DNA of 64,000 nucleotides, from the NCBI GenBank assembly GCA_001189095.1, contig LFCK01000002.1, forward strand, positions 131,650 to 195,649, read 5' to 3'. This document shows positions 3,108 to 24,852 of the stretch, one piece after another; the first letter of the stretch is position 1, and every line of letters begins with the position of its first letter. The stretch comes from Parcubacteria bacterium C7867-001 (GTDB lineage Bacteria > Patescibacteriota > Minisyncoccia > Phycocordibacterales > Phycocordibacteraceae). Made by a program: the position numbers and the translations under genes. The notes under the pieces are model-generated. The model made no database searches and was not told where the DNA came from. It worked only from the letters and a program-made list of their open reading frames with translations.

Positions 3108-3698
3108 ATGAAAACCCTTCACGGATTCTCGCTCCCTGAAACGCTCGTTGTCGTCGCGCTTGTTGCAACGGCAGGTCTCGCGCTTAACGGAGCGCTCGCC
3201 TCGTTCTATCAAAAGAATGCCTATATTTTTGAATCCGCGTCCGCGGTCGATATTGCGCAGCGTGGTCTTTCAGAATCGGTGACTGCGTTGCGCGAAGCGT
3301 CGTATGGTGCTGATGGTTCGTATCCGGTTGAATCAATCGCGACGTCGAGCGTTACGTTTTATGCGGACGTCGATGGTAATGGGGCAGTTGAAAGAGTGAA
3401 GCTTCGTCTTCAATCGGGAACGCTCTATCGCGTCCGCACGGTCGCGGCAGGAAGCCCGCCTTCATATTCCGGACAAACACCATCGACCACGACCTTGGCG
3501 ACAAATGTGAGCAATGCGACCTCAACGCCGATATTCCGTTACTATGATGTTGATGGGAGCGAGATTACATCGACCACGAGTCCTCAGAATGTGCGCTCGG
3601 TTTCAGTGCGACTCGATATCGACCTCAACCCGCGCCGCGCGCCGACGATCTCGACCATGTCCGGAGCAGCAACCCTTAGAAACCTACGAGACCAATGA
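3108..3698 (+). CDS. prepilin-type pseudopilin (canonical G|FSLPE N-terminus)
   Basis: MKTLHG-FSLPETLVVVALVATAG matches the prepilin peptidase cleavage/methylation motif with E+5; 1-nt gap to upstream gene. Confidence 0.8.
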   Translation: MKTLHGFSLPETLVVVALVATAGLALNGALASFYQKNAYIFESASAVDIAQRGLSESVTALREASYGADGSYPVESIATSSVTFYADVDGNGAVERVKLRLQSGTLYRVRTVAAGSPPSYSGQTPSTTTLATNVSNATSTPIFRYYDVDGSEITSTTSPQNVRSVSVRLDIDLNPRRAPTISTMSGAATLRNLRDQ

Positions 3699-5149
3699 AC
3701 CGAACTTCTCCTAAACCGCTTCGCGGCTACCTCATGCTTATCGCCATCGTGTTCGGTGCGATTTTTCTTGGTGCCCTTGGCGCCCTCGTCTCCTTCGTTC
3801 TTACGGAGAATCGCGCACGCAACGCAAACGATGTGCAGGCACGCGCGTTCGCTATCGCAGAAGCAGGTCTTGAATACTATCGCTGGCACTTGGCCCACTA
3901 TCCAAGCGATCTTCAGAATGGGACGGGAGCAGCCGGACCGTATTCGATGACGTATAACGATCCCGAAGGGGGAGCGCTCGGCACCATCGAACTCACTATT
4001 GGCGGTAATACGTCCTGCAACCAGATAACGTCGGTCGACATCACGTCGAAGGGAACAACCGCCGGCTCTCCGGCGTACACCAAGACTATTTTCGCGCGCT
4101 ACGCGCGCCCGTCGGTCGCGGAGTACTCCTATATATTGAATGACTCCGTCTGGGCTGGTTCCGATCGTGTCATCTTGGGTCCCTATCACAGCAATGGCGG
4201 CATACGCATGGACGGTACCGCGAACTCACCGGTAACCAGCTCGCTCTCAACGTGGAGTTGCACGTCGTCCTTCGGTTGCTCGCCAACCCAGACGAAAAAT
4301 GGCGTTTGGGGTGCAGGAACGAATCAAAATCTTTGGAGCTACCCAACTCCACAGGTCGACTTCGCAGGTATCTCGGCCGATTTCGGTACGCTAAAAACAA
4401 CGGCACAAGCGAGCGGTGTGTACTATCCGCGCTATTCAACCGGAACGGCGACGACGAGCTCATCCTATTGGAACGGCTATCACCTCACTTTTAATACGAA
4501 TGGCACGGTTACGGTAAAGCGAGTTTCGGCAACAACACAGCTCCAAGTTTCACCGGTTAATTCCGCGGAATGGACGACCGACCGCGCGCTGCTTGCAACC
4601 GAGGCTGCCTACGAGACGAAAACTATTCCCTCTACCTGCGGACTCATCTTCGTCGAAGATAACGTCTGGATCGACGGCACGGTTCCGAGCAAAATAACGC
4701 TTGTTGCAGCGAACGTGGTTTCTGGCGGGACTATTAGACCGAACATTTATCTACGCGACAATCTCCAGTACTCGGTAACGACCGGCGCAGCGGGACTCAC
4801 TGCAATCGCAGCGAACGATGTGCTTATTGCACCGAATGCACCGACGAACATGACGCTCAATGGCGTGTTCATAGCGCAGAATGGTGCATTTGGTCGCAAC
4901 CTCTACCTCAACAGCTCTCGTTCGGATTGCCATTCGACCTACGAACCAAAAGGAACACTTACGATTCTCGGTACAACTGTTTCAAATAAGCGAACGGGCA
5001 CGAAGTGGATGAATGGCTGCGGGTCTGGAGACGATGCTGGATTCCAGAATCGTGTGGACTCCTATGACCGGAACCTTTCGACCAATCCGCCGCCATTCAC
5101 TCCGTCAGTCTCAACCGATTACGAATTCGTCGACTGGCGCGAGCAATAG
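3695..5149 (+). CDS. large PilX/PilY-like minor pilin or pilus tip protein (N-terminal hydrophobic anchor, 484 aa, T/S/G/N-rich)
   Basis: Overlaps the upstream pilin gene stop by 4 nt; N-terminal TM helix but no E+5; composition like secreted adhesins. Confidence 0.5.
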   Translation: MNRTSPKPLRGYLMLIAIVFGAIFLGALGALVSFVLTENRARNANDVQARAFAIAEAGLEYYRWHLAHYPSDLQNGTGAAGPYSMTYNDPEGGALGTIELTIGGNTSCNQITSVDITSKGTTAGSPAYTKTIFARYARPSVAEYSYILNDSVWAGSDRVILGPYHSNGGIRMDGTANSPVTSSLSTWSCTSSFGCSPTQTKNGVWGAGTNQNLWSYPTPQVDFAGISADFGTLKTTAQASGVYYPRYSTGTATTSSSYWNGYHLTFNTNGTVTVKRVSATTQLQVSPVNSAEWTTDRALLATEAAYETKTIPSTCGLIFVEDNVWIDGTVPSKITLVAANVVSGGTIRPNIYLRDNLQYSVTTGAAGLTAIAANDVLIAPNAPTNMTLNGVFIAQNGAFGRNLYLNSSRSDCHSTYEPKGTLTILGTTVSNKRTGTKWMNGCGSGDDAGFQNRVDSYDRNLSTNPPPFTPSVSTDYEFVDWREQ

Positions 5150-5621: not shown

Positions 5622-6362
5622 ATGCTCATCATCGGAAATTGGAAGGCGTACGTTGACTCCAAGGAGGATGCAAAAAAGCTCGCTGCTGCGAGTAAACGCG
5701 CTGCGAGCGGTAGAAAGCATAAGATTGTCGTTGCTCCGCCGTATCCCTATCTCGGCATGCTCAAACCCGAGCGTCCGAGCTTCCTTCTTGCGGCCCAAGA
5801 CGTCTCGCCGACGACTGCGGGCGCTGCCACGGGCGAAGTATCCGCTGCTACACTTCGCGATCTCGGTGCGTCTTATGTCATCGTGGGTCACTCCGAACGC
5901 CGTGCCATGGGAGAGACCGATGCGGTCATTCTCACCAAGGTGCAACGAGCGCTTGCGAACGGGCTCACGCCGATTCTTTGCATTGGGGAACGTGCTCGTG
6001 ACCATGAAGCCAAATACCTTGCCTTCCTTCGTTCGCAGATAGATGCAGTGTTCTCGAAGTTGCTTCCGAAAGAGCGTACGAACGTCGTTATCGCCTACGA
6101 ACCAATTTGGGCCATCGGAAAGAGCGCACTCGATGCGATAGCGCCGAACGACCTCACCGAAATGGTGCTCTATATTCGCAAAGTACTCGGTGCGTATCTT
6201 CCCGGCAAAACAGCGCTCAAGACCCCGATTCTCTACGGAGGTTCAGCTGAGCCCGATAATGCGCGCCAGCTCGCGAGCGGTACGGGTATTGATGGATTCC
6301 TCGTTGGCCATGCGAGTGCCGATTCAAAGACGTTCGCAGCGCTCGTTAAGGTCCTTTCCTAG
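5622..6362 (+). CDS. tpiA: triosephosphate isomerase
   Basis: IIGNWK, GHSERR, AYEPIWAIG and YGGS motifs. Confidence 0.92.
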   Translation: MLIIGNWKAYVDSKEDAKKLAAASKRAASGRKHKIVVAPPYPYLGMLKPERPSFLLAAQDVSPTTAGAATGEVSAATLRDLGASYVIVGHSERRAMGETDAVILTKVQRALANGLTPILCIGERARDHEAKYLAFLRSQIDAVFSKLLPKERTNVVIAYEPIWAIGKSALDAIAPNDLTEMVLYIRKVLGAYLPGKTALKTPILYGGSAEPDNARQLASGTGIDGFLVGHASADSKTFAALVKVLS

Positions 6363-6449
6363 TTCACTTTTGCTTCATCCCCGCACCGGTATAGTTTGTT
6401 TCTTGTGCCGCGAGAATGATTCCGTAGGCACAGACCAAGGAGGTGGGTA

Positions 6450-6683
6450 ATGGCTGATGGATCGAAGGTTCAGTTCGAGAATGGTGTTTCGGGACTCGTT
6501 CCGCGACACTTTCCGGCTCCAGACGAATTGGTGTATCTCAATACACCGGGCGCCTGCCGAGAGGAACATATCGACGGAACATTCAGTGTATTCCGTGATC
6601 CAGACGACCGCTCAAAAATCGTCGGATTCCGGATACGCGGATTTACTGCGATCGTGATTCGTGAATTGAATCATCCGGTGTAA
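6450..6683 (+). CDS. hypothetical small protein (77 aa)
   Basis: SD AAGGAGG 6 nt upstream of ATG. Confidence 0.5.
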   Translation: MADGSKVQFENGVSGLVPRHFPAPDELVYLNTPGACREEHIDGTFSVFRDPDDRSKIVGFRIRGFTAIVIRELNHPV

Positions 6684-6774
6684 AACCGTAGAGCCTCGAT
6701 TGAAGAAAACATACCACCACTTACAAGGCGCCCACGGCGCCTTCTTTTTACCCGCCATACGCTAGTATGTTTCT

Positions 6775-7908
6775 ATGCGAACCGTACGTGACATTCCGAT
6801 GCTCGAAAATATTCCGGTCCTTCTTCGCACATCGCTGAATGCGCCGGTCGAGAATGGCGTCGTGACCGAGTCATTCCGACTTACAGCAGCGCTGCCGACT
6901 ATTGAATATTTGCGAACGCGTCATGCAAAAGTCGTGCTCGTCAGTCATATCAGTGGAAGTGGGGCCGAGACACTTGAGCCAATGTACAAGGCAATGAAGG
7001 AATGGATTCCTAATCTTGCTTTCTGTCCTGTTTCAACGGGACCCGAGGCACGTGCCGCGGTACGCGCTCTTTCGGCGGGTGGCGTCGTGATGCTCGAAAA
7101 TTTGCGCCGAAATGCGGGAGAGGAAAAGAATGATCCTGCGTTTGCAGTTGAGCTCGCTGAGCTCGCTGATGTTTTTGTCGAGGATTCCTTCGATACGTGC
7201 CATCGCGTACACGCCTCCATCGTCGGTGTGCCGAAGCTACTTCCAAGCTACGCGGGCCTCACGGTCGAGCGGGAAATAGCAGAACTTGCCGCGGCTCTCT
7301 CACCAAAGCATCCCTCCCTCGCCATCATTGGCGGCGCAAAATTTTCCACTAAGGAGCCGGTACTCGCGCGTCTCCTTACTTCATACGACTCAGTATTTGT
7401 CGGCGGTGCACTTGCGAACGATTTTCTCAAAGTGAAAGGATATCCAGTTGGTGTTTCAAGCGTGTCAGGTGCGGATGATGCGCAAATCAAAAAGCTGCTT
7501 ACTAATCCAAAGGTGTTGTTGCCGCTCGACGTGGTCGTTGCTTCTCAGGGAGCTGAACAGAGTTCGTCACGAGTCGTGGAACTTTCAGAGGTGGGAGACA
7601 CCGAAGGCATATATGACATTGGTCCGAAAACAGGAGAAATGCTTGCCGAAAAAATACACAGCGCCCGTACCATCCTTTGGAACGGGCCGATGGGGTTATT
7701 CGAAAAAGGGTATCTCGATGGAACACGCGCGGTAGCGCGTGCAGTTGCGGAAAGTGACGCGACGTCGGTTGTCGGAGGAGGAGATACGGTTGCAGTCATC
7801 AGCGAACTGAAAGCAGAGAACCGTTTTTCATTCATCTCGACCGGCGGTGGTGCGATGCTCGATTTCCTTGTGAGCGGTTCGCTTCCGGGAATCGCTGTTC
7901 TTAACTAG
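6775..7908 (+). CDS. pgk: phosphoglycerate kinase
   Basis: N-terminal substrate-binding region, VGGGDT and STGGGA motifs. Confidence 0.92.
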   Translation: MRTVRDIPMLENIPVLLRTSLNAPVENGVVTESFRLTAALPTIEYLRTRHAKVVLVSHISGSGAETLEPMYKAMKEWIPNLAFCPVSTGPEARAAVRALSAGGVVMLENLRRNAGEEKNDPAFAVELAELADVFVEDSFDTCHRVHASIVGVPKLLPSYAGLTVEREIAELAAALSPKHPSLAIIGGAKFSTKEPVLARLLTSYDSVFVGGALANDFLKVKGYPVGVSSVSGADDAQIKKLLTNPKVLLPLDVVVASQGAEQSSSRVVELSEVGDTEGIYDIGPKTGEMLAEKIHSARTILWNGPMGLFEKGYLDGTRAVARAVAESDATSVVGGGDTVAVISELKAENRFSFISTGGGAMLDFLVSGSLPGIAVLN

Positions 7909-8315
7909 TGTTGCAACAGTGCGCGGAGTTTTTCTGCGAGCTGCGTGCGTTCTTCTTTCGTGCTCGGAAGCTTTTCTGGAAAGTTCTTTTCTTGTCCTTC
8001 GTGGAAGGGGATTAGATGCAGGTGGAGATGAAAGACAACCTGTCCGGCTGACGGCTCATTATTCATACGTATCTGCATACCAGTTGCGCCAACTGAGTCG
8101 CGTACGACAGGCGCTATTTTGCGTGCGGTTTCCGCGACCTTACTCCAACTCTCCATGTCTATGTCAAAAATGTTGCGGGATTTCTTTTTCGGAATGACGA
8201 GCGTATGGCCGGGAACGTCCGGCATGATATCGAGGAAGGCGACCGTGTCCTCATCTTCATAAATGATGTCCGCAGGGACTTCATGTCGCGCTATTTTTTC
8301 GAAAATGTCATCCAT
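7905..8315 (-). CDS. HIT-family (histidine triad) nucleotide hydrolase; start taken at MDDIFEKI, not the first Met of the ORF
   Basis: HLHLHLIP histidine-triad motif and conserved N-terminal DxIFxKI...PGH; 3' end overlaps pgk by 4 nt (convergent). Confidence 0.8.
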   Translation of the reverse strand: MDDIFEKIARHEVPADIIYEDEDTVAFLDIMPDVPGHTLVIPKKKSRNIFDIDMESWSKVAETARKIAPVVRDSVGATGMQIRMNNEPSAGQVVFHLHLHLIPFHEGQEKNFPEKLPSTKEERTQLAEKLRALLQH

Positions 8316-8362
8316 GAAGGACAGGATACCGCACACAGCAGCTTTGCTACAATGTCCGGACA

Positions 8363-10081
8363 ATGGTCGCACTCCACAAACCCATAGATGCAGATGTGCG
8401 GGAAAGATTGAGCGGATACGACGACCTCACGGCTTCTTTGCTTGTGCGGCGTGGCGTGGAAACGGCGGCAGACGCCGCTGCGTTCCTCAGTCCTTCCTAT
8501 GATGAGCATATCCATGATCCGATGCTTATAAAAAATATGCCGAAAGCCGCTGCGCGCCTCGCTGCGGCCATAACGAGTGGAGAGCGTATTGGCGTCTGGA
8601 GTGACTACGATTGCGACGGTATCCCCGGCGGCGTGGTACTACACGATTTTCTCAAGAAAGCGGGCGCGAACTTTACGAATTACATTCCACATCGCCACGA
8701 AGAGGGTTACGGGGTGAATGAAATGGGAATCGATAAACTTGCGAAGGATGGCGTAAAACTTTTAATCACCGTCGATTCCGGCATCGTCGATAACGACGCA
8801 GTCGCGCACGCTAACGCGCTCGGCATGGAAGTTATCATTACTGACCATCACTTACCGAGCGAGGAATTGCCGCCAGCGTTTGCTGTCATCGATCCGAAGC
8901 AGGAAGGGGAAACCGCTCCGTTCCGCGACTACTGCGGTGCTGGGCTCGCGTGGAAACTAGTTTGCGCGACACTCGCACATGGATTCAAAGGGCGCGAAGC
9001 GATTCCGGAAGGGTGGGAGAAGTGGTTACTTGATATGGCAGGACTCGCAACCATCGCGGACATGGTTCCGCTCACCGGAGAGAATCGTGTCATCGCGAAA
9101 TACGGACTCCTTGTGATGCGGAAGTCGCCGCGCATTGGTCTACAAAAACTTCTGAAAATTGCACGAGTGAATCAGCGTTTCGTTTCGGAAGACGACGTTG
9201 GTTTCATGGTGGCTCCTCGCGTGAATGCCGCAAGTCGCATGGGAGATCCGCGCGACGCCTTCACTCTCCTTACAACGAGCGACGAGTCGGAGGCAGATCG
9301 GCTCGCAAAAGATTTGGAGAAGGCGAATCGCGGCAGGCGAAGCGCCGCCGCGGCCATCACGCGCGCGGTGCATGAACGACTCCACAAGCGTGAAAGCATT
9401 CCAAGCGTGATTGCGCTCGGTGACCCCGACTGGCGTCCGGGACTATTGGGGCTTGTTGCAAACGGTATCGCAGAAGAATACGAACGTCCGGTTTTTCTCT
9501 GGGGCCGCGAAGCGACAATGAAAGTGAAGGGTTCATGCCGCTCAGGAGGTGGCGCGCATGTTGTGGAGCTCATGCAGGCAGCTGGCGACACGTTTCTGGA
9601 ATTTGGCGGACACGCAAAAAGCGGTGGCTTCTCGCTCGCTGAAGACGCTGTCTTCTCCTTCGAAGAGAATTTGTGTAGAGCGTATGAAACCCTCTCGTTC
9701 GCCGATGACGGAAACAGGTTTGCTTTGGCCGACCAAGAACTCACTCCGGAAGAAGCAACGCCCGAACTTCTGCAGAAAGTAAATCGCCTTGCTCCCTATG
9801 GGATGGGTAATGAGAAGCCCGTGTTTCTCTTTCGCAATGTGAGTCTCGTGAAAGTTGAATGGTTCGGCAAGGCGAATGAGCATCTGAAACTAAAAATCGC
9901 ACGAGGTCTATCATTCGATAATGGGCCGATTGACGCTATCGCGTTCTACGCGAAGCGCGAACTCGGCAAGGTCTGCGAAACGATTGCAGACCGCTCGAGC
10001 GCAACGGTTCTTGGCTCACTTGAGCGCGATCAGTTTTCTCGGGGTGCGCCCATACGTCTCAGGATCGTTTCTATTTCTTAG
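8363..10081 (+). CDS. recJ: single-stranded-DNA-specific exonuclease RecJ
   Basis: DHH motifs (DYDCDGI, ITDHH), DHHA1 region and C-terminal OB-fold region. Confidence 0.9.
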   Translation: MVALHKPIDADVRERLSGYDDLTASLLVRRGVETAADAAAFLSPSYDEHIHDPMLIKNMPKAAARLAAAITSGERIGVWSDYDCDGIPGGVVLHDFLKKAGANFTNYIPHRHEEGYGVNEMGIDKLAKDGVKLLITVDSGIVDNDAVAHANALGMEVIITDHHLPSEELPPAFAVIDPKQEGETAPFRDYCGAGLAWKLVCATLAHGFKGREAIPEGWEKWLLDMAGLATIADMVPLTGENRVIAKYGLLVMRKSPRIGLQKLLKIARVNQRFVSEDDVGFMVAPRVNAASRMGDPRDAFTLLTTSDESEADRLAKDLEKANRGRRSAAAAITRAVHERLHKRESIPSVIALGDPDWRPGLLGLVANGIAEEYERPVFLWGREATMKVKGSCRSGGGAHVVELMQAAGDTFLEFGGHAKSGGFSLAEDAVFSFEENLCRAYETLSFADDGNRFALADQELTPEEATPELLQKVNRLAPYGMGNEKPVFLFRNVSLVKVEWFGKANEHLKLKIARGLSFDNGPIDAIAFYAKRELGKVCETIADRSSATVLGSLERDQFSRGAPIRLRIVSIS

Positions 10082-10099: not shown

Positions 10100-10516
10100 A
10101 TGCATTTCACTATTTTTGCGGACGGGGGCTCGCGTGGGAATCCGGGGCCTGCAGGCTCAGGCGCTATTGTGCGGAACGGTGCAGGGGATGCGGTACTTAC
10201 TGTTTCTCACTATATAGGTACAACAACTAACAATGTCGCCGAATACAAGGCGGTTATTTTTGCACTCGTGGGACTCGCAGAATATCTCGGCGCAGATGCA
10301 TCGAGTGCGCAGGTCGAAGTGTTCATGGATAGCAAGCTCGTCGTTGAGCAGATGAGCGGCAACTGGAAGATAAAGCATCCGAATATGAAACCACTCGCCG
10401 CGGAGGCGATGCGTGCGATGCGGGAATTCGCTTCGGTTACGTTCGCGCACGTTCCGCGCGAGAAAAATAAAGATGCGGACGCTCTCGCGAACGAGGCAAT
10501 GGACAGAGGCGCATGA
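10100..10516 (+). CDS. rnhA: ribonuclease HI
   Basis: DGGSRGNPGPAG, TNNVAEY and DSKLVVEQ RNase H motifs. Confidence 0.9.
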   Translation: MHFTIFADGGSRGNPGPAGSGAIVRNGAGDAVLTVSHYIGTTTNNVAEYKAVIFALVGLAEYLGADASSAQVEVFMDSKLVVEQMSGNWKIKHPNMKPLAAEAMRAMREFASVTFAHVPREKNKDADALANEAMDRGA

Positions 10517-11994
10517 GCGGAACGCTTTTCATCGCAAGCATCATTGGAGTAATTGGCGGCATCTTGTGCCGCTTTTTTAGTACGCCGGTTTGGTCGCTTG
10601 CAGCACTGTTCGGTGTCTTCGGTTTCGTATTTATTGTTGCGTATGCTGTTAAGCGTCGCGAGGCGTATGCTCTTCTTGCGTGTGCAACAGTAGTAGCGGC
10701 ACTTATTCTCACGCGTCTTCTTTTCATTCCTTCCGAACTCCCATCTTCGTTTGTGTCGCTCGTCGACACGAAGGTTTCTTTTGAGGGAACCATTGTCAGC
10801 GATCCTGATATTCGCGATTCAAACCAGCATGTCGTTATCGAGGTCGAGAAGGAGGGGGAGGCAACAAAAATTCTTGCATTCGCGCCGCTTTTCCCGAAGC
10901 TTGCATACGGGGAGCGTGTTGAGGTTTCTGGAAAGCTGAAATATCCAGAACCGTTCACAACTGATGGGGGACGAACGTTTGCGTATGACGAGTATCTCGC
11001 GAAAGACGGAATATTCTCTCTCATCTCATATGCAGAAGTTACGGTACTCGAAGAGCCGGAAGGGTTCTTTACGAACGCGAGAGGATTCTTGTATTCGATA
11101 AAGCATGCGTTCGTTGACGCGCTCATGCGCGCACTCCCGCAAGCGCAGGCTGCGCTCGCGTCCGGACTTATTGCAGGAGGGAAGCAAGGGCTTGGCGATG
11201 ATCTGCTTGAAGCGTTTACCATTGCGGGACTTCTGCCAATCATCGTCTTGTCGGGGTACAACGTGATGATTGTTGCGGATTGGATTCGTAAACTCTTCGG
11301 GTTCCTCCCAAAACGATTTTCGATACTTCTCTCCGCGCTCGCGGTTGCTGCGTTCGTGCTCGCGGCGGGCGGCGGGTCGTCCGCGGTGCGTGCGGGGTTC
11401 ATGGCAGGGCTCGCGCTTTTCGCTCGCGTAACGAATCGAACCTACGTTGCACTCCGCGCGCTCGCAGCGGTATTCATCGGCATGCTTTTCCTGAACCCGC
11501 TTCTTTTGCTCAACGACCCCGGATTCCAGTTTTCATTCGTAGCAACGCTCGGTCTCATTCTGGGAACGCCAATCGTCGAGCGGCGTTTGTTGTGGATCAA
11601 AAATGAATTCTTGCGCGAAATAGCAGCGACGACCGTCGCGGCACAAATCGCGGTTTTGCCGCTGCTTCTCTATCAAACAGGCAATCTCTCACTCGTTTCG
11701 CTTCTTGCGAATGTGCTCGTGCTTCCGTTCGTTCCGCTCACGATGCTGCTTTCGTTCCTTGCGGCACTCGTCAGTTTCGTCGTACCCAACATTGCGCCTC
11801 TTGCGGGTGCGCCCGCCTTTGTTTTCCTTTCCTACATTATTGGCGTGGGAGAGATAAGCGCGTCGCTCCCGTACGCCCACCTCATCGTGTATGCCTTTCC
11901 GTTCTGGATCGTCATCGGCCTCTACCTCCTCATCGCCTATATTTTTCTTGAGCTCTGCGGCGCAAAAGTTGCAGCCGTAAAGGGTACGGGGTAG
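10513..11994 (+). CDS. comEC: ComEC/Rec2-family DNA internalisation channel (short form, no C-terminal metallo-beta-lactamase domain)
   Basis: Polytopic membrane protein with competence-domain signature; ATGA overlap with the rnhA stop. Confidence 0.7.
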   Translation: MSGTLFIASIIGVIGGILCRFFSTPVWSLAALFGVFGFVFIVAYAVKRREAYALLACATVVAALILTRLLFIPSELPSSFVSLVDTKVSFEGTIVSDPDIRDSNQHVVIEVEKEGEATKILAFAPLFPKLAYGERVEVSGKLKYPEPFTTDGGRTFAYDEYLAKDGIFSLISYAEVTVLEEPEGFFTNARGFLYSIKHAFVDALMRALPQAQAALASGLIAGGKQGLGDDLLEAFTIAGLLPIIVLSGYNVMIVADWIRKLFGFLPKRFSILLSALAVAAFVLAAGGGSSAVRAGFMAGLALFARVTNRTYVALRALAAVFIGMLFLNPLLLLNDPGFQFSFVATLGLILGTPIVERRLLWIKNEFLREIAATTVAAQIAVLPLLLYQTGNLSLVSLLANVLVLPFVPLTMLLSFLAALVSFVVPNIAPLAGAPAFVFLSYIIGVGEISASLPYAHLIVYAFPFWIVIGLYLLIAYIFLELCGAKVAAVKGTG

Positions 11995-12021: not shown

Positions 12022-12285
12022 ATGAGTGATGAACTGGCTATTACCCTAGCGATCAAGCTTCCGATCCTGCAGGACAAAATCTACCTCGAAGATTTGCCGG
12101 AGGTTTCGGCGACCAACTTCAAGTCGGTTCCGGCCGGCATCGAGCAGCTTAAACGGAAGCTCGAAGGTTACTGCAAGACGTTCGGCAACGAACCGGTGCG
12201 TGTCGCAATTGCCTACGATGGAAAGGCGGCGCCGACGATGGTCATTTTCGCGCCCGAAAACTTCAAGTTCATCGGAGGCGCATGA
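12022..12285 (+). CDS. hypothetical protein (87 aa)
   Basis: Strong SD AAAGGAGAG; followed by a hairpin terminator. Confidence 0.5.
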   Translation: MSDELAITLAIKLPILQDKIYLEDLPEVSATNFKSVPAGIEQLKRKLEGYCKTFGNEPVRVAIAYDGKAAPTMVIFAPENFKFIGGA

Positions 12286-12927: not shown

Positions 12928-13004
12928 AGAGGAATTATATACGGTACTCGTGAGGGCGGTATGAGGGTTTTGTAAGGTGGCATAGGTGGGATACCATATC
13001 CTTC

Positions 13005-14021
13005 ATGGACAACAGGATAAGTAACTGGCCGCCCTCCTCGAGCGGCTCAAAAGACCCCAAGCAAACTTCAGACGCAGAGCTTCTAACGCCGGACGAAATA
13101 GAAACGGAGCTCGAAAATATGGATCCGGAGCTGCGACTCTCATTTCGCCGTATCCCCAAAGAACTCTGGCCGCGACATTTCAATGCAATAGAAAATCTGA
13201 AAAATGATTCGGATGTCGATCCCGCACTTGTTGGTGAGCGTCAAAAAAATTATATGGCGGTCATCATCGAAGCTCGTGAGAAAGCAGTGGTTGAATTCCA
13301 TGTCTCGGATAAGGGGTTACAGGAACAGTGGCCTGAAGCTCCAGAGCAGCTGGGCTCAAAACTCCGCGAAGCGTTCGCTCTATCCGGTAATCTTCTCGGT
13401 GCAGGCCGAACTGCGCGAGTGAAGAGTGTGAAGTTCGACGGTATCGATAAGCCTATTGCGGTCAAATATCTTCTTACTCCAACTGAGAAGACACTCTCGG
13501 TAGACGGTGAGCATGACATGCTGAAAGAGGTGGAAACTATTACAAAGATAGAGGAGGCGGAAAATCGCTCAGGCGCAGGCATGCATGTCCGTGTTCCGCA
13601 TCCGTACTTCTACTTCAAGGATCGCAAACTCCAGACGTACGGCATGTCGGAAGTGAATGGTGTTGATATCGAAAACCTCCTTAAAGGAACAAACTCGCGC
13701 ATAGGACTCCAAGACACGGTCATGAACGCTCTTCGGAAGCGCTTCGAAACGCCACAATCGAGAGAGGAACTCTGGAAAGAGGTCGATACGTTTGTAAACG
13801 CTATGCATGAAGTATGTCTCCACGGAGACGTGAAGGATAAGAACATCATGGTCGACGACGAAGGCCGCTTCTTCCTCATTGATTTCGGTCAGTCGGTGCC
13901 AGTAAGTTCGATGACTGAGGAAACGCGAGCACAATTTGACGAATTGAAAGACGAGGAACGAAAGGCGATGCAGAATCGTATTCGAAATCTCGTGCAGGTT
14001 GCGGTTGCGGCTAAAGCATAA
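13005..14021 (+). CDS. atypical protein-kinase-like fold protein (Bud32/RIO/APH-like)
   Basis: Gly-rich loop GAGRTARV, beta3 Lys (IAVKY), catalytic loop LHGDVKDKNIMV and IDFGQS motif; start codon uncertain. Confidence 0.6.
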   Translation: MDNRISNWPPSSSGSKDPKQTSDAELLTPDEIETELENMDPELRLSFRRIPKELWPRHFNAIENLKNDSDVDPALVGERQKNYMAVIIEAREKAVVEFHVSDKGLQEQWPEAPEQLGSKLREAFALSGNLLGAGRTARVKSVKFDGIDKPIAVKYLLTPTEKTLSVDGEHDMLKEVETITKIEEAENRSGAGMHVRVPHPYFYFKDRKLQTYGMSEVNGVDIENLLKGTNSRIGLQDTVMNALRKRFETPQSREELWKEVDTFVNAMHEVCLHGDVKDKNIMVDDEGRFFLIDFGQSVPVSSMTEETRAQFDELKDEERKAMQNRIRNLVQVAVAAKA

Positions 14022-14029
14022 CCGTACGT

Positions 14030-14060
14030 AAAAGGGTGCCGGCAAGGCCGGCACCCGTAG
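14030..14060. terminator. bidirectional terminator (GGGTGCCGGC-AAGG-CCGGCACCC)
   Basis: GC hairpin between convergent genes. Confidence 0.55.
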
Positions 14061-14061
14061 C

Positions 14062-14697
14062 TTATTTCTTAGACGTTCTCGGTTTGTACGCGCTCGCGAG
14101 CGCGATAGCGTGCTCGAGTTCTTGGATGAGGATGCACTCCTGTTCCGCGTACGGAAGGTAGTAGCGCACCGTCTCCTCTATTTTCGCGCGACGCTTGTCT
14201 TCGGGTCGCCCATCGAGCGTCAGCAGATTGTGCAGACGGTCGGCGAGCTTGATGAACCAGAATTCGCGCGGCGCAAACCGGAAGCGCTCATGGTAGATAC
14301 GTTCCCGTTCGTGCTTGGTCCCGAAGGTTTCGTCCGGCATCGAGAGATACTCGAGCAGAAGCGCCACTTCGCGCCCGTATTCGCTCGAGATGCGTTCGAT
14401 GGTCCACTCCTTCTTATCTTCGACGCTGTCATGCATGAGAGCGGCGACGATGAGGTGATGGTCCTTCACACGCAGATACTCGATGAGGATGAGCGCGACG
14501 GCCCGCAAGTGCTCGAAATAGCGTTCGCCGCCGTCTCGAAACGTTTCGCGGAACGCGTCCTTCGCATCGTTATACGCCTTTTCGATCTCGCGGTAGCGAG
14601 GATCGTGGGGCGGCAAGAACTGCGCGATGCGCCGGAAGAACGTCTCTCGGTTCTGAGCCTCTTTCAAAAAGGGCATGTTGAGGGTGTGCCTAAGCAT
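14062..14697 (-). CDS. stand-alone HD-domain (p)ppGpp hydrolase (RelA/SpoT hydrolase-domain homologue, SAH/Mesh1-like)
   Basis: HLRAVALIL...LHDSVED and KLADRLHNL match the SpoT HD hydrolase signatures; no synthetase domain. Confidence 0.7.
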   Translation of the reverse strand: MLRHTLNMPFLKEAQNRETFFRRIAQFLPPHDPRYREIEKAYNDAKDAFRETFRDGGERYFEHLRAVALILIEYLRVKDHHLIVAALMHDSVEDKKEWTIERISSEYGREVALLLEYLSMPDETFGTKHERERIYHERFRFAPREFWFIKLADRLHNLLTLDGRPEDKRRAKIEETVRYYLPYAEQECILIQELEHAIALASAYKPRTSKK

Positions 14698-14747
14698 TGA
14701 GCCACCTTCCTTTCTGTCTTTCCTTTTCTACAAAAATAGGGGAGTGT

Positions 14748-14786
14748 CAAAAAACCACCGCCCCCAAGGGGGCGGTGGTTTTTCGG
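14748..14786 (-). terminator. intrinsic terminator downstream of rpmB (CCACCGCCCCC-AA-GGGGGCGGTGG TTTTT)
   Basis: Perfect 11-bp stem plus T-run. Confidence 0.6.
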
Positions 14787-14789
14787 GTC

Positions 14790-15035
14790 TTATTTGATGA
14801 CTCCTGCTTTCTTAAGGGTGGCGAAAGCGCCGTTCTTCTTGATGTGGCGGAGGCCTTTCACCGAGATGTCGACGAGGACCGACTTACCGAGCTCCGCAAT
14901 GAAAATGCGGCGCTTCTGGAGGTTTGCCTTGCGGCGTACTTTGCCGGTCGGATTGAACTGCGTTGCACGGGTACGGTTAGAATACCGCCCGCCAATCTGC
15001 GTGCTCTTTCCGGTGATTTCACATTCGCGTGCCAT
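14790..15035 (-). CDS. rpmB: 50S ribosomal protein L28
   Basis: MARECEITGK... with the basic KRR...NLQK pattern typical of bL28; start at the second Met of the ORF. Confidence 0.75.
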   Translation of the reverse strand: MARECEITGKSTQIGGRYSNRTRATQFNPTGKVRRKANLQKRRIFIAELGKSVLVDISVKGLRHIKKNGAFATLKKAGVIK

Positions 15036-16066: not shown

Positions 16067-16693
16067 ATGGTGCAGATGAAAGAAATAACTGCTGCGGTCG
16101 TCGAGAAGACGGTCGAGCTTGGCCGCATGCTCTTGAATTTCGGTCTCGTAAAGCGCGTCACGCAGCACGAGGACGGCGTGACGTATGAAAGCGATTCCAC
16201 CCACACCGTGATGCTCGGTGTGATGGCCTGCGCCTTTGCGAAGGAGTACGTGCCGGACCTCGATCTCGGAAAAGTCGCGCAATTCGCGCTCGTGCACGAT
16301 CTCGTCGAAGTTTACGCAGGGGACACGAATACATTTGGAAAAATTGAGCACAACCCGGACAAAGAAGAACGCGAGCGCGAAGCGCTCGCGCGTATTAAAA
16401 CAGAGTTCGATAGCGTCTATCCGTGGCTCGGAGACACGATCACCGAATACGAACAGCTCGCATCTCGCGAAGCGCGCTACATAAAGGTGTTCGACAAAAT
16501 CCTTCCAAAAGTCACCCATCTTTTAAACGCCGGAAGTGCGGTGCGAGCACAGGGTCAGACCAAAGAAATGGCATCAGCTTTCATCGGGGCGCAGATAGAA
16601 AAACTCGCTCATTCCTACGCAACAGACCAGTCCGAAGCCATGACGCTCCTCAAGGAAATGCATGCTGAGTTCGAACGCAAGGTGTTTCCCTAG
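16067..16693 (+). CDS. HD-domain hydrolase, YfbR-like 5'-deoxynucleotidase family
   Basis: H...HD...E...GD motif arrangement (SDSTHTVMLG, LVHDLVEVYAGD). Confidence 0.7.
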   Translation: MVQMKEITAAVVEKTVELGRMLLNFGLVKRVTQHEDGVTYESDSTHTVMLGVMACAFAKEYVPDLDLGKVAQFALVHDLVEVYAGDTNTFGKIEHNPDKEEREREALARIKTEFDSVYPWLGDTITEYEQLASREARYIKVFDKILPKVTHLLNAGSAVRAQGQTKEMASAFIGAQIEKLAHSYATDQSEAMTLLKEMHAEFERKVFP

Positions 16694-23795: not shown

Positions 23796-23836
23796 AACAC
23801 AAAACCCGCGGCCAAAGGCCGCGGGTTTTGTGTTAT
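23796..23836 (+). terminator. intrinsic terminator (AAAACCCGCGGCC-AAA-GGCCGCGGGTTTTGTGTT)
   Basis: 13-bp stem plus T-rich tail directly after fusA. Confidence 0.65.
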
Positions 23837-23847
23837 TCTGCGAAATT

Positions 23848-24852
23848 ATGAAGGGACCCCTGTTGGTCATCGCTCTCGCACTCCTCATCGGTGTCGTTGC
23901 GGGTGCCGGATATCTCTACGTTACGTCGCAAAAAGCACCTGCCGGTCCGAATCTGATTGAGAATACGAACTCCTCTACGTCTTCGTCGACTAACTCGGTC
24001 GTTACTGAAAAAGAAAAACAGGGCACGTTGCTTATGAGTTACGGGAAAACACTTTTGCCCTCCATAGAAACTACGCTGCCAGTAGCACAAGGTTTGTGTG
24101 GTCTTGTCTACGGCAACTTCTGTGCATGGAATGGATCAGCTATTAAAGAGAAAACTTTTTATCTCTACGGAAGCAAGGATAAGCAGCCGAGTATCACCGT
24201 CTCACAGCCGTACCCAAAGACCGTTGTTCAGTACGGTCCCTCGGTGCCCATTCGCTTTACCGACGCCGGACCGACAGGTCCTCATCGCGTCTATCTGATT
24301 CATCGGAACCTCCTCGGGGAAGTGAATGAAGTCCATGAGGCACATATCGTGAGTGAAAGCGGAACAAGTGAGCTCACGCTCGTCTGGGACGGGAACGAGT
24401 CCTTGCTTAACGAACGCGGGTCGCTGGTCGTCCAGAAACTTCCCAAAGGGCACTACGAACTTGTTGTCGTGAATACCGCTACTGGAGTTGAGGGCGGCGT
24501 TTCCTCGTGGATACACACCATCGACTCTGCAAGCGACGTCGACAAGGTAACCGGAAGTTACATAAAACCGTATGCGCTCAACACGCCGCTCGTTAATTCT
24601 TACTGGGACGGTCGGGGCATTTTCTTTGATGGTGGGGGAGACGAAGACAACATCGGTCTCACGTTTAAGCGAAGCGAAATCGCTGTCTTCCGAGGCATTG
24701 ATGTGCCGGAGAAGGGTCAGCTAAACACGCTTGTATTCTTTCGTCGTCCCGACAACGTCGTTATCGTCACGGCCAATGTCGAAACTTTCCAATTTGCAGA
24801 CCAAAAACTGACCGTTGCGCAGCTGCTCCAGCAGATTGCCTCTGGAAAATAA
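23848..24852 (+). CDS. hypothetical exported or membrane-anchored protein (N-terminal TM/signal anchor, about 335 aa)
   Basis: Hydrophobic N-terminus MKGPLLVIALALLIGVVAGAG; no recognisable domain. Confidence 0.5.
   Translation: MKGPLLVIALALLIGVVAGAGYLYVTSQKAPAGPNLIENTNSSTSSSTNSVVTEKEKQGTLLMSYGKTLLPSIETTLPVAQGLCGLVYGNFCAWNGSAIKEKTFYLYGSKDKQPSITVSQPYPKTVVQYGPSVPIRFTDAGPTGPHRVYLIHRNLLGEVNEVHEAHIVSESGTSELTLVWDGNESLLNERGSLVVQKLPKGHYELVVVNTATGVEGGVSSWIHTIDSASDVDKVTGSYIKPYALNTPLVNSYWDGRGIFFDGGGDEDNIGLTFKRSEIAVFRGIDVPEKGQLNTLVFFRRPDNVVIVTANVETFQFADQKLTVAQLLQQIASGK

What the first reader, a model, noticed from the sequence alone, without database searches (positions are those of the whole stretch)
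13005..14697. Atypical protein-kinase-like gene convergent with a stand-alone RelA/SpoT-type (p)ppGpp hydrolase
The 338-aa protein carries a Gly-rich loop, VAIK-like Lys, HGDxxxxN catalytic loop and DFG motif (LHGDVKDKNIMV...IDFGQS). These are hallmarks of the Bud32/RIO/APH kinase-like fold, attached to a ~150-aa N-terminal region of unknown function. The convergent gene encodes only the HD hydrolase half of RelA/SpoT (HDSVED, KLADRLHNL), i.e. a small alarmone hydrolase with no synthetase partner in the window. Both are regulatory enzymes in a genome region otherwise made up of housekeeping genes.
Basis: partly seen in the sequence, partly recalled or inferred. Interest (0 to 1): 0.55.

Follow-up and report, generated by a model that had tools for sequence, protein, structure and literature searches.

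The report
Two unlinked enzymes: minimal kinase, alarmone hydrolase
Both genes are real, but a survey of relatives found them adjacent only in this organism: one is an uncharacterised, stripped-down protein-kinase-like enzyme found only in ultra-small Patescibacteria, the other an ordinary-looking stand-alone (p)ppGpp hydrolase that is highly conserved in that group and is mislabelled as a synthetase in the database.

Summary
ORF 13005-14021(+) encodes 338 aa and ORF 14062-14697(-) encodes 211 aa. They converge on a 40-bp gap holding a strong hairpin terminator. The source is a Parcubacteria/Patescibacteria MAG.

The kinase-like protein passes Pfam Pkinase only marginally. However, all catalytic residues are invariant across about 100 Patescibacterial homologues. 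The AlphaFold model is a bilobal kinase with a truncated C-lobe, roughly equidistant from RIO1, PknB, WaaP and Bud32. Residues 28-125 form an acidic helical domain with no structural relative.

The HD protein is a clear RelA/SpoT-type hydrolase domain with the metal-binding and substrate motifs, and no synthetase domain.

The implied pairing is not supported. None of about 45 other loci surveyed has both genes adjacent. The slot between sodA and rpmB holds one, the other, or neither.

An unexpected lead emerged. In about a third of kinase lineages the gene lies within 5 kb of the t6A genes tsaD or tsaC and an ABC exporter. This hints at a Bud32-like role but is unproven.

Whether the genome has any (p)ppGpp synthetase cannot be told from this window. 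Moderate interest.

The parts
13005..14021 (+). Kinase-like gene, 338 aa. Member of a Patescibacteria-restricted family of minimal protein-kinase-like proteins.
13086..13379 (+). N-terminal acidic helical domain (residues 28-125) with family-conserved P51, L54, H58, Y83, R91.
13392..13424 (+). Gly-rich ATP-binding loop LLGAGRTARVK (residues 130-140).
   Evidence: G132, G134, T136, A137 invariant and K140 nearly invariant. Lies on strands 130-133 and 137-142 of the model.
13464..13466 (+). Beta-3 lysine K154 (the 'VAIK' lysine, IAVKYL).
   Evidence: Invariant. On strand 151-156.
13815..13844 (+). Catalytic loop CLHGDVKDKN (residues 271-280): HGD, a Ser/Thr-kinase-type Lys at D+2, and N280.
   Evidence: C271, H273, G274, D275, K277, N280 invariant. 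Aligned to HRDVKPSN of MKK7 and HGDLSEYN of RIO1.
13878..13895 (+). Metal-binding loop IDFGQS (residues 292-297). Only 43 residues follow it, most of them in one long helix (305-335).
   Evidence: I292, D293, F294, G295, Q296 invariant. RIO1 and Rio2 share ID..QSV. Helix 305-335.
14034..14056 (.). Hairpin with a 10-bp stem (9 G-C pairs) in the 40-bp intergenic gap. It is followed by a T-run on the minus strand, so it is the intrinsic terminator of the HD gene and possibly bidirectional.
   Evidence: Terminator scan; sequence.
14062..14697 (-). Stand-alone RelA/SpoT-type hydrolase (small alarmone hydrolase architecture), 211 aa.
   Evidence: HD_4 58.7 bits. NCBIfam spoT_relA matches positions 1-146 only. 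PDB hits are only Rel/RelA/SpoT hydrolase domains, SAHs and MESH1. 465 homologues, the best 120 being 195-272 aa and 57-75% identical.
14509..14538 (-). RDGGERYFEH (residues 54-63): the R..GE.Y..H segment, aligned to RKSGEPYIIH of B. subtilis Rel. By established knowledge of Rel/MESH1 structures this segment supplies the first metal-binding His and nucleotide-binding residues.
   Evidence: R54, R59, Y60, F61, E62, H63 invariant. Alignment to 8acu.
14416..14433 (-). HDSVED (residues 89-94): the HD metal ligands and the ED catalytic pair.
   Evidence: H89, D90, E93, D94 invariant. Aligned to HDVVED of Rel.
14227..14250 (-). KLADRLHN (residues 150-157): the third metal-binding Asp and the HN motif.
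   Evidence: K150, L151, D153, L155, H156, N157 invariant. Aligned to KLADRLHN of Rel.
14790..15035 (-). rpmB (ribosomal protein L28), same strand as the HD gene and 92 bp upstream of it. A promoter-like site lies at 15074-15045. Together these probably form an rpmB-HD transcription unit ending at the hairpin.
   Evidence: Pfam Ribosomal_L28. 81-aa gene call. Promoter-like match 10 of 12. The same rpmB-then-HD order occurs in L046 and L047.

Best explanation
The finding covers two independent genes that are neighbours only in this organism among the loci surveyed.

(1) Kinase-like gene. It encodes a catalytically competent, minimal protein-kinase-like enzyme. It has a normal N-lobe: a Gly-rich loop, K154 and an alpha-C helix. 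Its catalytic loop is HGD-x-K-x-x-N and its metal-binding loop is DFGQS. There is no activation segment and no substrate-binding C-lobe, just one long C-terminal helix. An acidic helical domain of about 100 aa precedes it. The most likely mode of action is Mg-ATP binding followed by either phosphorylation of a Ser/Thr on a protein partner (or on itself) or use of ATP hydrolysis as a switch, as other minimal kinases (RIO, Bud32, NleH/OspG) do. The N-terminal domain would supply partner recognition. The family is confined to Patescibacteria and sits in housekeeping neighbourhoods. The fold and residue conservation are shown. Activity, substrate and the role of the N-domain are inferred.

(2) HD gene. 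It encodes a Mn2+-dependent 3'-pyrophosphohydrolase of the RelA/SpoT hydrolase type, converting (p)ppGpp to GDP/GTP plus PPi. It is probably co-transcribed with rpmB. Its sequence is closer to the hydrolase half of long Rel enzymes than to known SAH or MESH1 structures. It is very strongly conserved across Patescibacteria, so it looks like a core function rather than an accessory one. The domain identity and motifs are shown. The substrate is inferred.

(3) No evidence points to a functional coupling between the two.
For: Kinase:
- Pkinase, RIO1, Kdo and APH are all just above their Pfam cut-offs.
- All catalytic positions are invariant in 25 homologues with 28-57% identity to the window protein.
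- The AF2 model has pLDDT 85.5 and pTM 0.74, with 43 residues (most in one long helix) after the DFG.
- Foldseek top hit is PRPK at 1.3e-7.
- The family profile against PDB gives RIO1 5.4e-6, Rio2 3.5e-5, Aurora 4e-5 and Bud32 2e-4.
- The family has 45 cluster representatives at E<=1e-30 and 148 at E<=1e-10. Named members are Patescibacterial. None were found on viral contigs.

HD protein:
- Family and structure hits; invariant motifs; 465 homologues with mean column identity 62%.

Independence of the two genes:
- A tblastn survey found the HD gene next to the kinase only in the window.
- L001 (kinase 57% identical) reads sodA-kinase-MBL-100aa-rpmB, with no HD gene.
- L046/L047 (HD 75% identical) read rpmB-HD-73aa-223aa-sodA. 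The 223-aa protein gives no tblastn match to the kinase.
- HD loci L042 and L043 have other neighbours.
- A terminator hairpin lies between the genes.
Against: - Kinase family scores are marginal, and no known family reaches an equivalog cut-off. 'Protein kinase' versus 'small-molecule kinase' versus 'ATPase switch' is therefore not settled.
- The protein is acidic (pI about 5), unlike the RNA-binding RIO and Bud32 proteins.
- No substrate is identified.
- For the HD protein, (p)ppGpp is assumed from homology. MESH1-type enzymes also hydrolyse (p)ppApp (PMC7644958) and NADPH (PMC9765508). No synthetase was found in the window or in 462 kb of relatives' loci scanned.
- Lack of conserved adjacency does not strictly exclude an interaction in this one organism.
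Confidence: 0.7

Rival explanations
1. The kinase-like family is a bacterial counterpart of Bud32/PRPK. It would be an ATPase/kinase that works with TsaD (the Kae1 orthologue) and TsaC in making t6A37 on tRNA in Patescibacteria.
For: - tsaD and/or tsaC lie within about 5 kb of the kinase gene in 8 distinct loci, in varying order and orientation, usually with an ABC exporter: L005, L006, L008, L010/L037, L018/L032, L025, L036 and L023.
- On an NJ tree these loci fall on both sides of the midpoint root, including the window's half (L025, L023).
- tsaE lies 5.5 kb upstream of the kinase in L009.
- The best Foldseek hit is human PRPK.
- NCBIfam arch_bud32 scores 2.8e-7.
- JGI names several members 'Bud32'.
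Against: - The Bud32 equivalog score is 30 bits against a cut-off of 125.
- The catalytic loop has Lys where, from textbook knowledge of the family, Bud32 has Thr (HGDLTxSN); this comparison was not run here.
- The protein is acidic and carries an extra N-domain.
- The TsaD in these loci is the ordinary bacterial type, above the TIGR03723 cut-off. A canonical TsaE exists in at least one kinase-bearing genome, so there is no obvious vacancy.
- The largest clade (RmuC-L21-kinase-RecR-DnaB-CysS) has no t6A gene near the kinase. Neither do the window, L001, L003, L048 or L049.
- The window has no tsaD or tsaC in 64 kb.
Confidence: 0.13
2. The kinase-like protein is a small-molecule (sugar, lipid or antibiotic) kinase of the APH/KdoK/WaaP type. 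It could be linked to the ABC exporter that often neighbours it.
For: - The best NCBIfam hit is Kdo kinase at 3.1e-8.
- Pfam Kdo and APH are just above their cut-offs.
- NCBI names one member 'phosphotransferase' and another 'AarF/UbiB family'.
- An ABC_membrane+ABC_tran exporter is adjacent in seven distinct loci (L005, L008, L010/L037, L018/L032, L025, L036; the L036 match is weak, 25% identity).
Against: - The invariant Lys two residues after the catalytic Asp (HGD-x-K) is, by established knowledge, the Ser/Thr protein-kinase signature. It is not found in APH, choline-kinase or KdoK loops.
- All these matches cover only the 50-80 residues around the catalytic and DFG loops.
- There is no helical substrate-binding C-lobe like that of APH or ChoK. 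Only one helix follows the DFG.
- ABC adjacency is absent in most lineages, including the window.
Confidence: 0.12
3. The two genes form a functional module in which the kinase regulates, or is regulated through, alarmone hydrolysis. This is the reading implied by the first-stage reader.
For: They are adjacent and convergent with only 40 bp between them. Both are plausible regulatory enzymes.
Against: - The adjacency was found only in the window's own organism (L044 and L045 are the same sequence). It was absent in all other kinase loci and the four other HD-gene loci examined.
- The genes are convergent with a strong terminator between them, so they are not co-transcribed.
- The HD family is much larger than the kinase family: 465 hits, still at 57% identity at rank 120, against 101 hits.
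Confidence: 0.04
4. The HD protein's physiological substrate is not self-made (p)ppGpp. If Patescibacteria lack alarmone synthetases, it may salvage or detoxify host- or phage-derived (p)ppGpp or (p)ppApp, or act on NADPH as MESH1 does.
For: - No synthetase motif was found in the window or in 462 kb of Patescibacterial loci.
- The protein is mis-annotated as '(p)ppGpp synthetase I' although it has only the hydrolase domain. Reported '(p)ppGpp synthesis' in such genomes may therefore rest on this kind of annotation.
- MESH1 and bacterial orphan SAHs are promiscuous (PMC7644958, PMC9765508).
- These organisms must acquire nucleotides externally (PMC6031116).
Against: - The sampled sequence is far too small to show absence of a synthetase. 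If there were one gene per roughly 0.8-Mb genome, about 0.6 copies would be expected in the 462 kb scanned.
- PMC6031116 implies that most Saccharibacteria are annotated as able to make (p)ppGpp.
- The sequence is closest to genuine Rel hydrolase domains.
Confidence: 0.25

Closest known systems
RIO kinases (Rio1/Rio2; Pfam PF01163)
   Different: The catalytic loop has Lys (HGD-I-K-P-x-N) where RIO has Ser (HGDLSEYN). The Pfam RIO1 match covers only 53 of 187 profile positions. The N-terminal domain has no structural similarity to anything solved. The protein is acidic. It occurs in bacteria that otherwise lack RIO-type ribosome biogenesis.
Bud32/PRPK of the KEOPS complex
   Same: Both have a truncated C-lobe and HGD/DFG loops. 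PRPK is the top Foldseek hit. There is a weak NCBIfam arch_bud32 hit. A third of lineages have the gene near tsaD (the Kae1 orthologue) or tsaC.
Hanks-type Ser/Thr kinases (PknB; Pfam PF00069)
   Different: It lacks everything after the DFG (activation loop, APE, alpha-F to alpha-I). It has HGD rather than HRD. The Gly-rich loop is G-x-G-x-T-A rather than G-x-G-x-F-G.
Small alarmone hydrolases (MESH1, PaSAH, C. glutamicum RelH and others) and the hydrolase domain of long Rel/SpoT
   Same: It has a single HD_4 domain of about 200 aa with H...HD...D metal ligands, the ED pair, R..GE.Y..H and KL.DRLHN, and no synthetase domain.
   Different: It is closer in sequence to long-Rel hydrolase domains (B. 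subtilis Rel 1.5e-16) than to solved SAHs or MESH1 (1.5e-9 to 2e-4). It forms a tight, highly conserved Patescibacterial clade. It is not next to a toxic SAS. Phage SAHs are at most 39% identical.

Membership tests
Protein-kinase-like superfamily / Pfam Pkinase (PF00069) | Profile score above the curated cut-off | tested here: met
   33.7 bits against 31.7, covering profile positions 5-152 of 263. This is marginal. Most homologues also carry precomputed PF00069 hits.
Protein-kinase-like superfamily / Pfam Pkinase (PF00069) | Gly-rich loop, beta-3 Lys, catalytic H-x-D...N loop and DFG, all conserved | tested here: met
   G132, G134, K154, H273, D275, K277, N280, D293, F294 and G295 are invariant in 25 sequences.
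Protein-kinase-like superfamily / Pfam Pkinase (PF00069) | Bilobal kinase fold | tested here: met
Protein-kinase-like superfamily / Pfam Pkinase (PF00069) | Activation segment (APE) and C-lobe helices alpha-F to alpha-I of canonical eukaryotic-type kinases | tested here: not met
   Only 43 residues follow the DFG, most of them in one helix, 305-335. The Pkinase match stops at profile position 152.
Protein-kinase-like superfamily / Pfam Pkinase (PF00069) | ATP-dependent phosphotransfer | not testable with these tools
   Needs biochemistry.
RIO kinases | RIO domain profile over its length, and RIO-type loops (STGKEA, HGDLSEYN, ID..Q) | tested here: inconclusive
RIO kinases | RIO-specific N-terminal helix or winged-helix domain | tested here: not met
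Bud32/PRPK (KEOPS) | Equivalog-level profile score | tested here: not met
   TIGR03724 scores 30.2 bits against a cut-off of 125. The PRK14879 models score 16-23 bits against cut-offs of 174-246.
Bud32/PRPK (KEOPS) | Genomic or physical association with Kae1/TsaD | tested here: inconclusive
   There is no tsaD or tsaC in the window. tsaD or tsaC lies within about 5 kb in 8 distinct related loci on both sides of the family tree. It is absent in the largest clade. Physical interaction was not tested.
Small alarmone hydrolase (RelA/SpoT-homologue superfamily) | RSH-type HD domain (HD_4) above cut-off, with RSH proteins as nearest relatives | tested here: met
   HD_4 scores 58.7 bits against 27.2. 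spoT_relA scores 2.5e-21 over positions 1-146. All 18 PDB hits are Rel/RelA/SpoT hydrolase domains, SAHs or MESH1.
Small alarmone hydrolase (RelA/SpoT-homologue superfamily) | Metal-binding H / HD / D, the ED catalytic pair, and the R..GE.Y..H and KL.DRLHN motifs | tested here: met
   H63, H89, D90, E93, D94, D153, H156, N157, R54 and Y60 are invariant and aligned to the same residues of B. subtilis Rel.
Small alarmone hydrolase (RelA/SpoT-homologue superfamily) | Single-domain architecture with no synthetase or regulatory domains | tested here: met
   The protein is 211 aa. The gene ends at a terminator and then the convergent kinase gene. The best 120 homologues are 195-272 aa.
Small alarmone hydrolase (RelA/SpoT-homologue superfamily) | Mn2+-dependent hydrolysis of (p)ppGpp | not testable with these tools
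   Needs an enzyme assay.
toxSAS / antitoxin-SAH modules and phage SAHs | SAH encoded next to a small alarmone synthetase, or in a prophage | tested here: not met
   Neighbours are rpmB and the kinase gene. No synthetase motif occurs in the window. Other HD loci have housekeeping neighbours. The closest viral relatives are at most 39% identical.

The most novel reading that the evidence does not exclude
The kinase-like family may be a Patescibacteria-specific, Bud32/RIO-like ATPase or kinase that has been recruited to the bacterial t6A machinery as a partner of TsaD and TsaC. That would make it a bacterial analogue of the archaeal and eukaryotic KEOPS Bud32-Kae1 pair. The recurrent linkage of its gene with tsaD, tsaC and an ABC exporter would reflect this role. 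The linkage spans lineages whose kinases are only 28-57% identical to the window protein.
Probability: 0.13. Interest if true: 0.75.

Novelty: new variant of a known kind. Interest (0 to 1): 0.36.

Why it matters
The kinase-like family is a conserved, catalytically intact, lineage-restricted enzyme in organisms with very small gene sets, and nothing is written about it. Full-text searches combining Bud32, TsaB/TsaE or small alarmone hydrolase with Patescibacteria or CPR returned nothing. If it proves to work with TsaD, it would show convergent or shared use of a Bud32-like ATPase in bacterial t6A synthesis. The HD protein matters for annotation and physiology. It is labelled a (p)ppGpp synthetase in GenBank but can only be a hydrolase. 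Claims that such bacteria make (p)ppGpp may therefore need re-checking. If no synthetase exists, a highly conserved orphan alarmone hydrolase in obligate symbionts would need explaining. As it stands, both genes are new members or variants of known enzyme kinds, and the suggested pairing is coincidental.

Tried and rejected
1. Functional pairing of the two genes. Rejected after the synteny survey of 13 genome loci, 22 metagenome loci and about 15 look-up loci.
4. The idea that the kinase replaces TsaE. Weakened because a canonical TsaE is found in kinase-bearing locus L009.
5. Search for TsaB or further t6A genes among small ORFs next to the kinase or tsaD. None found.
6. Defence-system membership. 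PADLOC gave only weak generic kinase hits and nothing for the HD protein.
7. Phage origin. The kinase family is absent from viral contigs. Viral SAHs are only distant relatives.
8. Synthetase search by motif in the window and in 462 kb of loci. Nothing found, but the sample is too small to mean absence.
9. Literature on (p)ppGpp, SAH, Bud32 or t6A in CPR/Patescibacteria. Nothing relevant beyond one remark on Saccharibacteria in PMC6031116.
10. The AlphaFold-database fold library was unavailable.
11. L013, a Micrarchaeia locus pulled in by the DFGQ pattern, carries an ordinary archaeal Rio1 and is not a family member.
Full report
**What is there**

The window comes from a Patescibacteria (Parcubacteria) metagenome-assembled genome. 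The HD protein is identical to a GenBank protein of 'Parcubacteria bacterium C7867-001'. The same locus is on contig DGYL01000006.1 of GCA_002396685.1, which is 279,923 bp long.

ORF 13005-14021(+) encodes 338 aa and ORF 14062-14697(-) encodes 211 aa. They converge on a 40-bp gap. That gap contains a hairpin with a 10-bp stem and 9 G-C pairs (14034-14056), followed by a T-run on the minus strand.

The surrounding genes are housekeeping:
- Upstream of the kinase: pgk, tpi, a HIT-domain gene, recJ, rnhA, comEC and sodA.
- Beyond the HD gene: rpmB, an M50 protease, a second HD protein (HD_3), lemA, a TPM-domain gene, rpsL, rpsG, fusA and the large ribosomal-protein operon.
- Elsewhere in the window: ftsH, recG and a tmRNA.

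**The kinase-like protein**

Pfam places it just above threshold in several families of the kinase clan: Pkinase 33.7 bits (cut-off 31.7), RIO1 24.7, Kdo 23.8 and APH 23.8. The last three cover only the catalytic and DFG loops. NCBIfam gives only sub-threshold hits: Kdo kinase 3.1e-8 and archaeal Bud32 2.8e-7.

A database search found 101 homologues of 300-340 aa. Every source name that gives a taxon is Patescibacterial (Pacebacteria, Parcubacteria, 'Patescibacteria group'). Kaiserbacteria and Nomurabacteria appear among the genome records and cluster names.

Some names given by sources are 'serine/threonine protein kinase', 'Bud32', 'AarF/UbiB' and 'phosphotransferase'. This spread reflects the same ambiguity.

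An exhaustive profile search found 45 cluster representatives at E<=1e-30 and 148 at E<=1e-10. A second tier of full-length relatives of 280-330 aa is included.

In an alignment of 25 members (28-57% identical to the query), these positions are invariant:
- the Gly-rich loop (G132, G134, T136, A137),
- K154,
- the catalytic loop (C271, H273, G274, D275, K277, N280),
- I292, D293, F294, G295 and Q296.

This is not a pseudokinase.

AlphaFold gives a confident model (pLDDT 85.5, pTM 0.74). Residues 1-27 are disordered. Six helices span 28-125. A standard N-lobe follows, with strands 130-156 and the alpha-C helix at 166-189. The C-lobe ends, after the DFG, in one long helix at 305-335.

Structure comparison confirms the kinase fold but singles out no family:
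- Foldseek: PRPK first, at 1.3e-7.
- Family profile against PDB: RIO1 5.4e-6, Rio2 3.5e-5, Aurora about 4e-5, Bud32 2e-4.

The metal loop IDFGQSV resembles RIO (ID..QSV). The HGD-x-K-x-x-N loop carries the Lys typical of Ser/Thr protein kinases.

One NCBI record (GCA_002396685.1) calls a 300-aa product starting at M39. Homologues align well upstream of that position, so the 338-aa reading is preferred.

**The HD protein**

- HD_4 scores 58.7 bits against a cut-off of 27.2.
- The RelA/SpoT family model matches only its first 146 positions, which is the hydrolase half.
- All 18 matches among solved structures are hydrolase domains of Rel, RelA or SpoT (best: B. subtilis Rel, 1.5e-16), bacterial SAHs or MESH1.
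- The residues that define the active site are invariant in 24 homologues and align to the same residues of Rel: R54, Y60, H63; H89, D90; E93, D94; D153, H156, N157.
- There is no room for a synthetase domain. The gene ends at the terminator, and the best 120 homologues are 195-272 aa.

The family is large and unusually conserved. There are 465 hits, and the 120th is still 57-61% identical. Mean column identity is 62%. The GenBank name '(p)ppGpp synthetase I' is therefore wrong.

The gene lies 92 bp downstream of rpmB on the same strand. A promoter-like site lies just upstream of rpmB. The rpmB-HD order recurs in the closest relative.

**Are the two linked?**

No evidence says so. I collected kinase loci from species-representative genomes, metagenomes and exact-protein look-ups. 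I then searched them by tblastn for the window's neighbours. The HD gene is next to the kinase gene only in the window.

Comparing the closest relatives:
- The closest kinase locus (L001, 57% identity) keeps the backbone rnhA-comEC-sodA-kinase...rpmB-M50. Between the kinase and rpmB it has an MBL-fold gene and a 100-aa ORF.
- The closest HD locus (L046/L047, 75% identity) keeps rpmB-HD...sodA-comEC-rnhA-recJ. Where the kinase would be, it has a 73-aa ORF and an unrelated 223-aa ORF.
- Other HD loci have different neighbours again.

The stretch between sodA and rpmB is therefore a variable slot. The co-residence of the two genes here is best read as coincidence.

**An unexpected lead**

Conserved neighbours of the kinase fall into three patterns:
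- sodA, in the window's clade;
- RmuC-(L21)-kinase-RecR-DnaB-CysS, in a large monophyletic clade;
- a set with an ABC exporter, tsaC and tsaD in changing order and orientation.

The third pattern occurs in L005, L006, L008, L010/L037, L018/L032, L025 and L036. In addition, L023 has tsaC 0.7 kb downstream of the kinase.

On a neighbour-joining tree the t6A-linked loci lie on both sides of the midpoint root, including the window's half. In L009 a canonical tsaE lies 5.5 kb upstream, though the kinase there follows polA and precedes fpg. Together with the weak Bud32/PRPK similarity, this suggests a possible role with TsaD.

Several points weigh against it:
- Bud32 equivalog scores are far below the cut-offs.
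- Bud32 is not the best structural match.
- The TsaD in these loci is the normal bacterial type, and TsaE exists in at least one such genome.
- More than half of the lineages, including the window, show no such linkage.
- More distant relatives sit next to pth or unrelated genes.
- In such small genomes most neighbours are translation or replication genes anyway.

I rate this reading at about 0.13.

**The synthetase question**

A regex for conserved RSH synthetase motifs found nothing in the window or in 462 kb of Patescibacterial loci. With one gene per genome, only about 0.6 copies would be expected in that much sequence. Absence is therefore not shown.

The searchable literature holds nothing specific. 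One paper remarks that a particular Saccharibacterium 'is unable to make (p)ppGpp', unlike most others as annotated (PMC6031116). Bacterial orphan SAHs and MESH1 are known to be promiscuous (PMC9765508, PMC7644958). Phage-encoded SAHs are known (PMC7229694). They were also found here, but they are at most 39% identical.

**Verdict**

The kinase is a member of an uncharacterised, Patescibacteria-restricted family of minimal RIO/Bud32/Hanks-like kinases with a novel acidic helical N-domain. That makes it a new variant of a known kind. The HD protein is a well-conserved small alarmone hydrolase, a new member of a known kind, and it is mis-annotated as a synthetase. The convergent arrangement has no detectable functional meaning. 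Interest is moderate. It would rise if the t6A link or the absence of any alarmone synthetase were confirmed by a genome-wide census.

Noticed in passing
window 59393-59467 (-): A tRNA-Ile gene with anticodon TAT (UAU), found by ARAGORN and Rfam. From general knowledge, most bacteria read AUA with a lysidine-modified CAU tRNA. A UAU tRNA-Ile therefore suggests AUA decoding without TilS in this organism.
   Followed up: no
window 56020-56437 (-): A full-length tmRNA gene (Rfam RF00023, 98.8 bits).
   Followed up: no
window 14062-14697 (-); GenBank record of P0102: The HD-only protein is named 'GTP pyrophosphokinase, (p)ppGpp synthetase I' in GenBank, and several JGI homologues are named 'GTP pyrophosphokinase'. 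The protein has no synthetase domain. Metabolic reconstructions that credit such genomes with (p)ppGpp synthesis may rest on this mis-annotation.
   Followed up: partly
window 12928-14789; L001 2568-4853; L046 8655-9774: The stretch between sodA and rpmB is a variable slot in an otherwise conserved backbone (recJ-rnhA-comEC-sodA ... rpmB-M50). It holds the kinase plus the HD gene here. In L001 it holds the kinase, an MBL-fold gene and a 100-aa ORF. In L046 it holds the HD gene, a 73-aa ORF and an unrelated 223-aa ORF without Pfam hits.
   Followed up: partly
window 10513-11994 (+); L001 280-1755 and 3660-4505: ComEC here (493 aa; DUF4131 plus Competence domains) lacks the metallo-beta-lactamase domain. 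In L001 a separate 281-aa MBL-fold protein is encoded just after the kinase gene. This may be a split ComEC. No MBL partner was looked for in the window.
   Followed up: no
L005 7611-8792, L008 7069-8232, L037 13738-14919: The Patescibacterial TsaD proteins are 387-393 aa. The NCBIfam TsaD model (314 positions) matches them in two stretches, implying an insertion of about 50 aa near the N-terminus. tsaD is repeatedly found divergent from or near the same ABC exporter, and is preceded by a DHH/DHHA1 gene in L006 and L037.
   Followed up: partly
window 16067-16693 (+): A second, unrelated HD-domain protein (HD_3, 80 bits; weak YfbR-like 5'-deoxynucleotidase match) lies 1.4 kb from the alarmone hydrolase, directly after the M50 protease gene.
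   Followed up: no
window 3695-5149 (+), 23830-24852 (+), 52701-53984 (+), 12022-12285 (+): Four ORFs have no Pfam match: two of 484 and 427 aa, a 340-aa ORF after fusA, and the 87-aa ORF between comEC and sodA.
   Followed up: no
L050-L097 (viral contigs): 48 viral contigs encode SAH-like HD proteins 27-39% identical to the window's protein. This is consistent with published phage-encoded SAHs (PMC7229694). None belongs to the tight Patescibacterial clade.
   Followed up: no
L009 3285-5915 / 5890-6858; L003 4718-5917 / 5932-6900; L049 7461-7997 / 8001-8861: In some lineages the kinase gene overlaps or abuts an upstream same-strand gene in an operon-like way: polA (26-bp overlap), mgsA/rarA (14-bp gap) and pth (3-bp gap). 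All are housekeeping genes of different pathways.
   Followed up: partly
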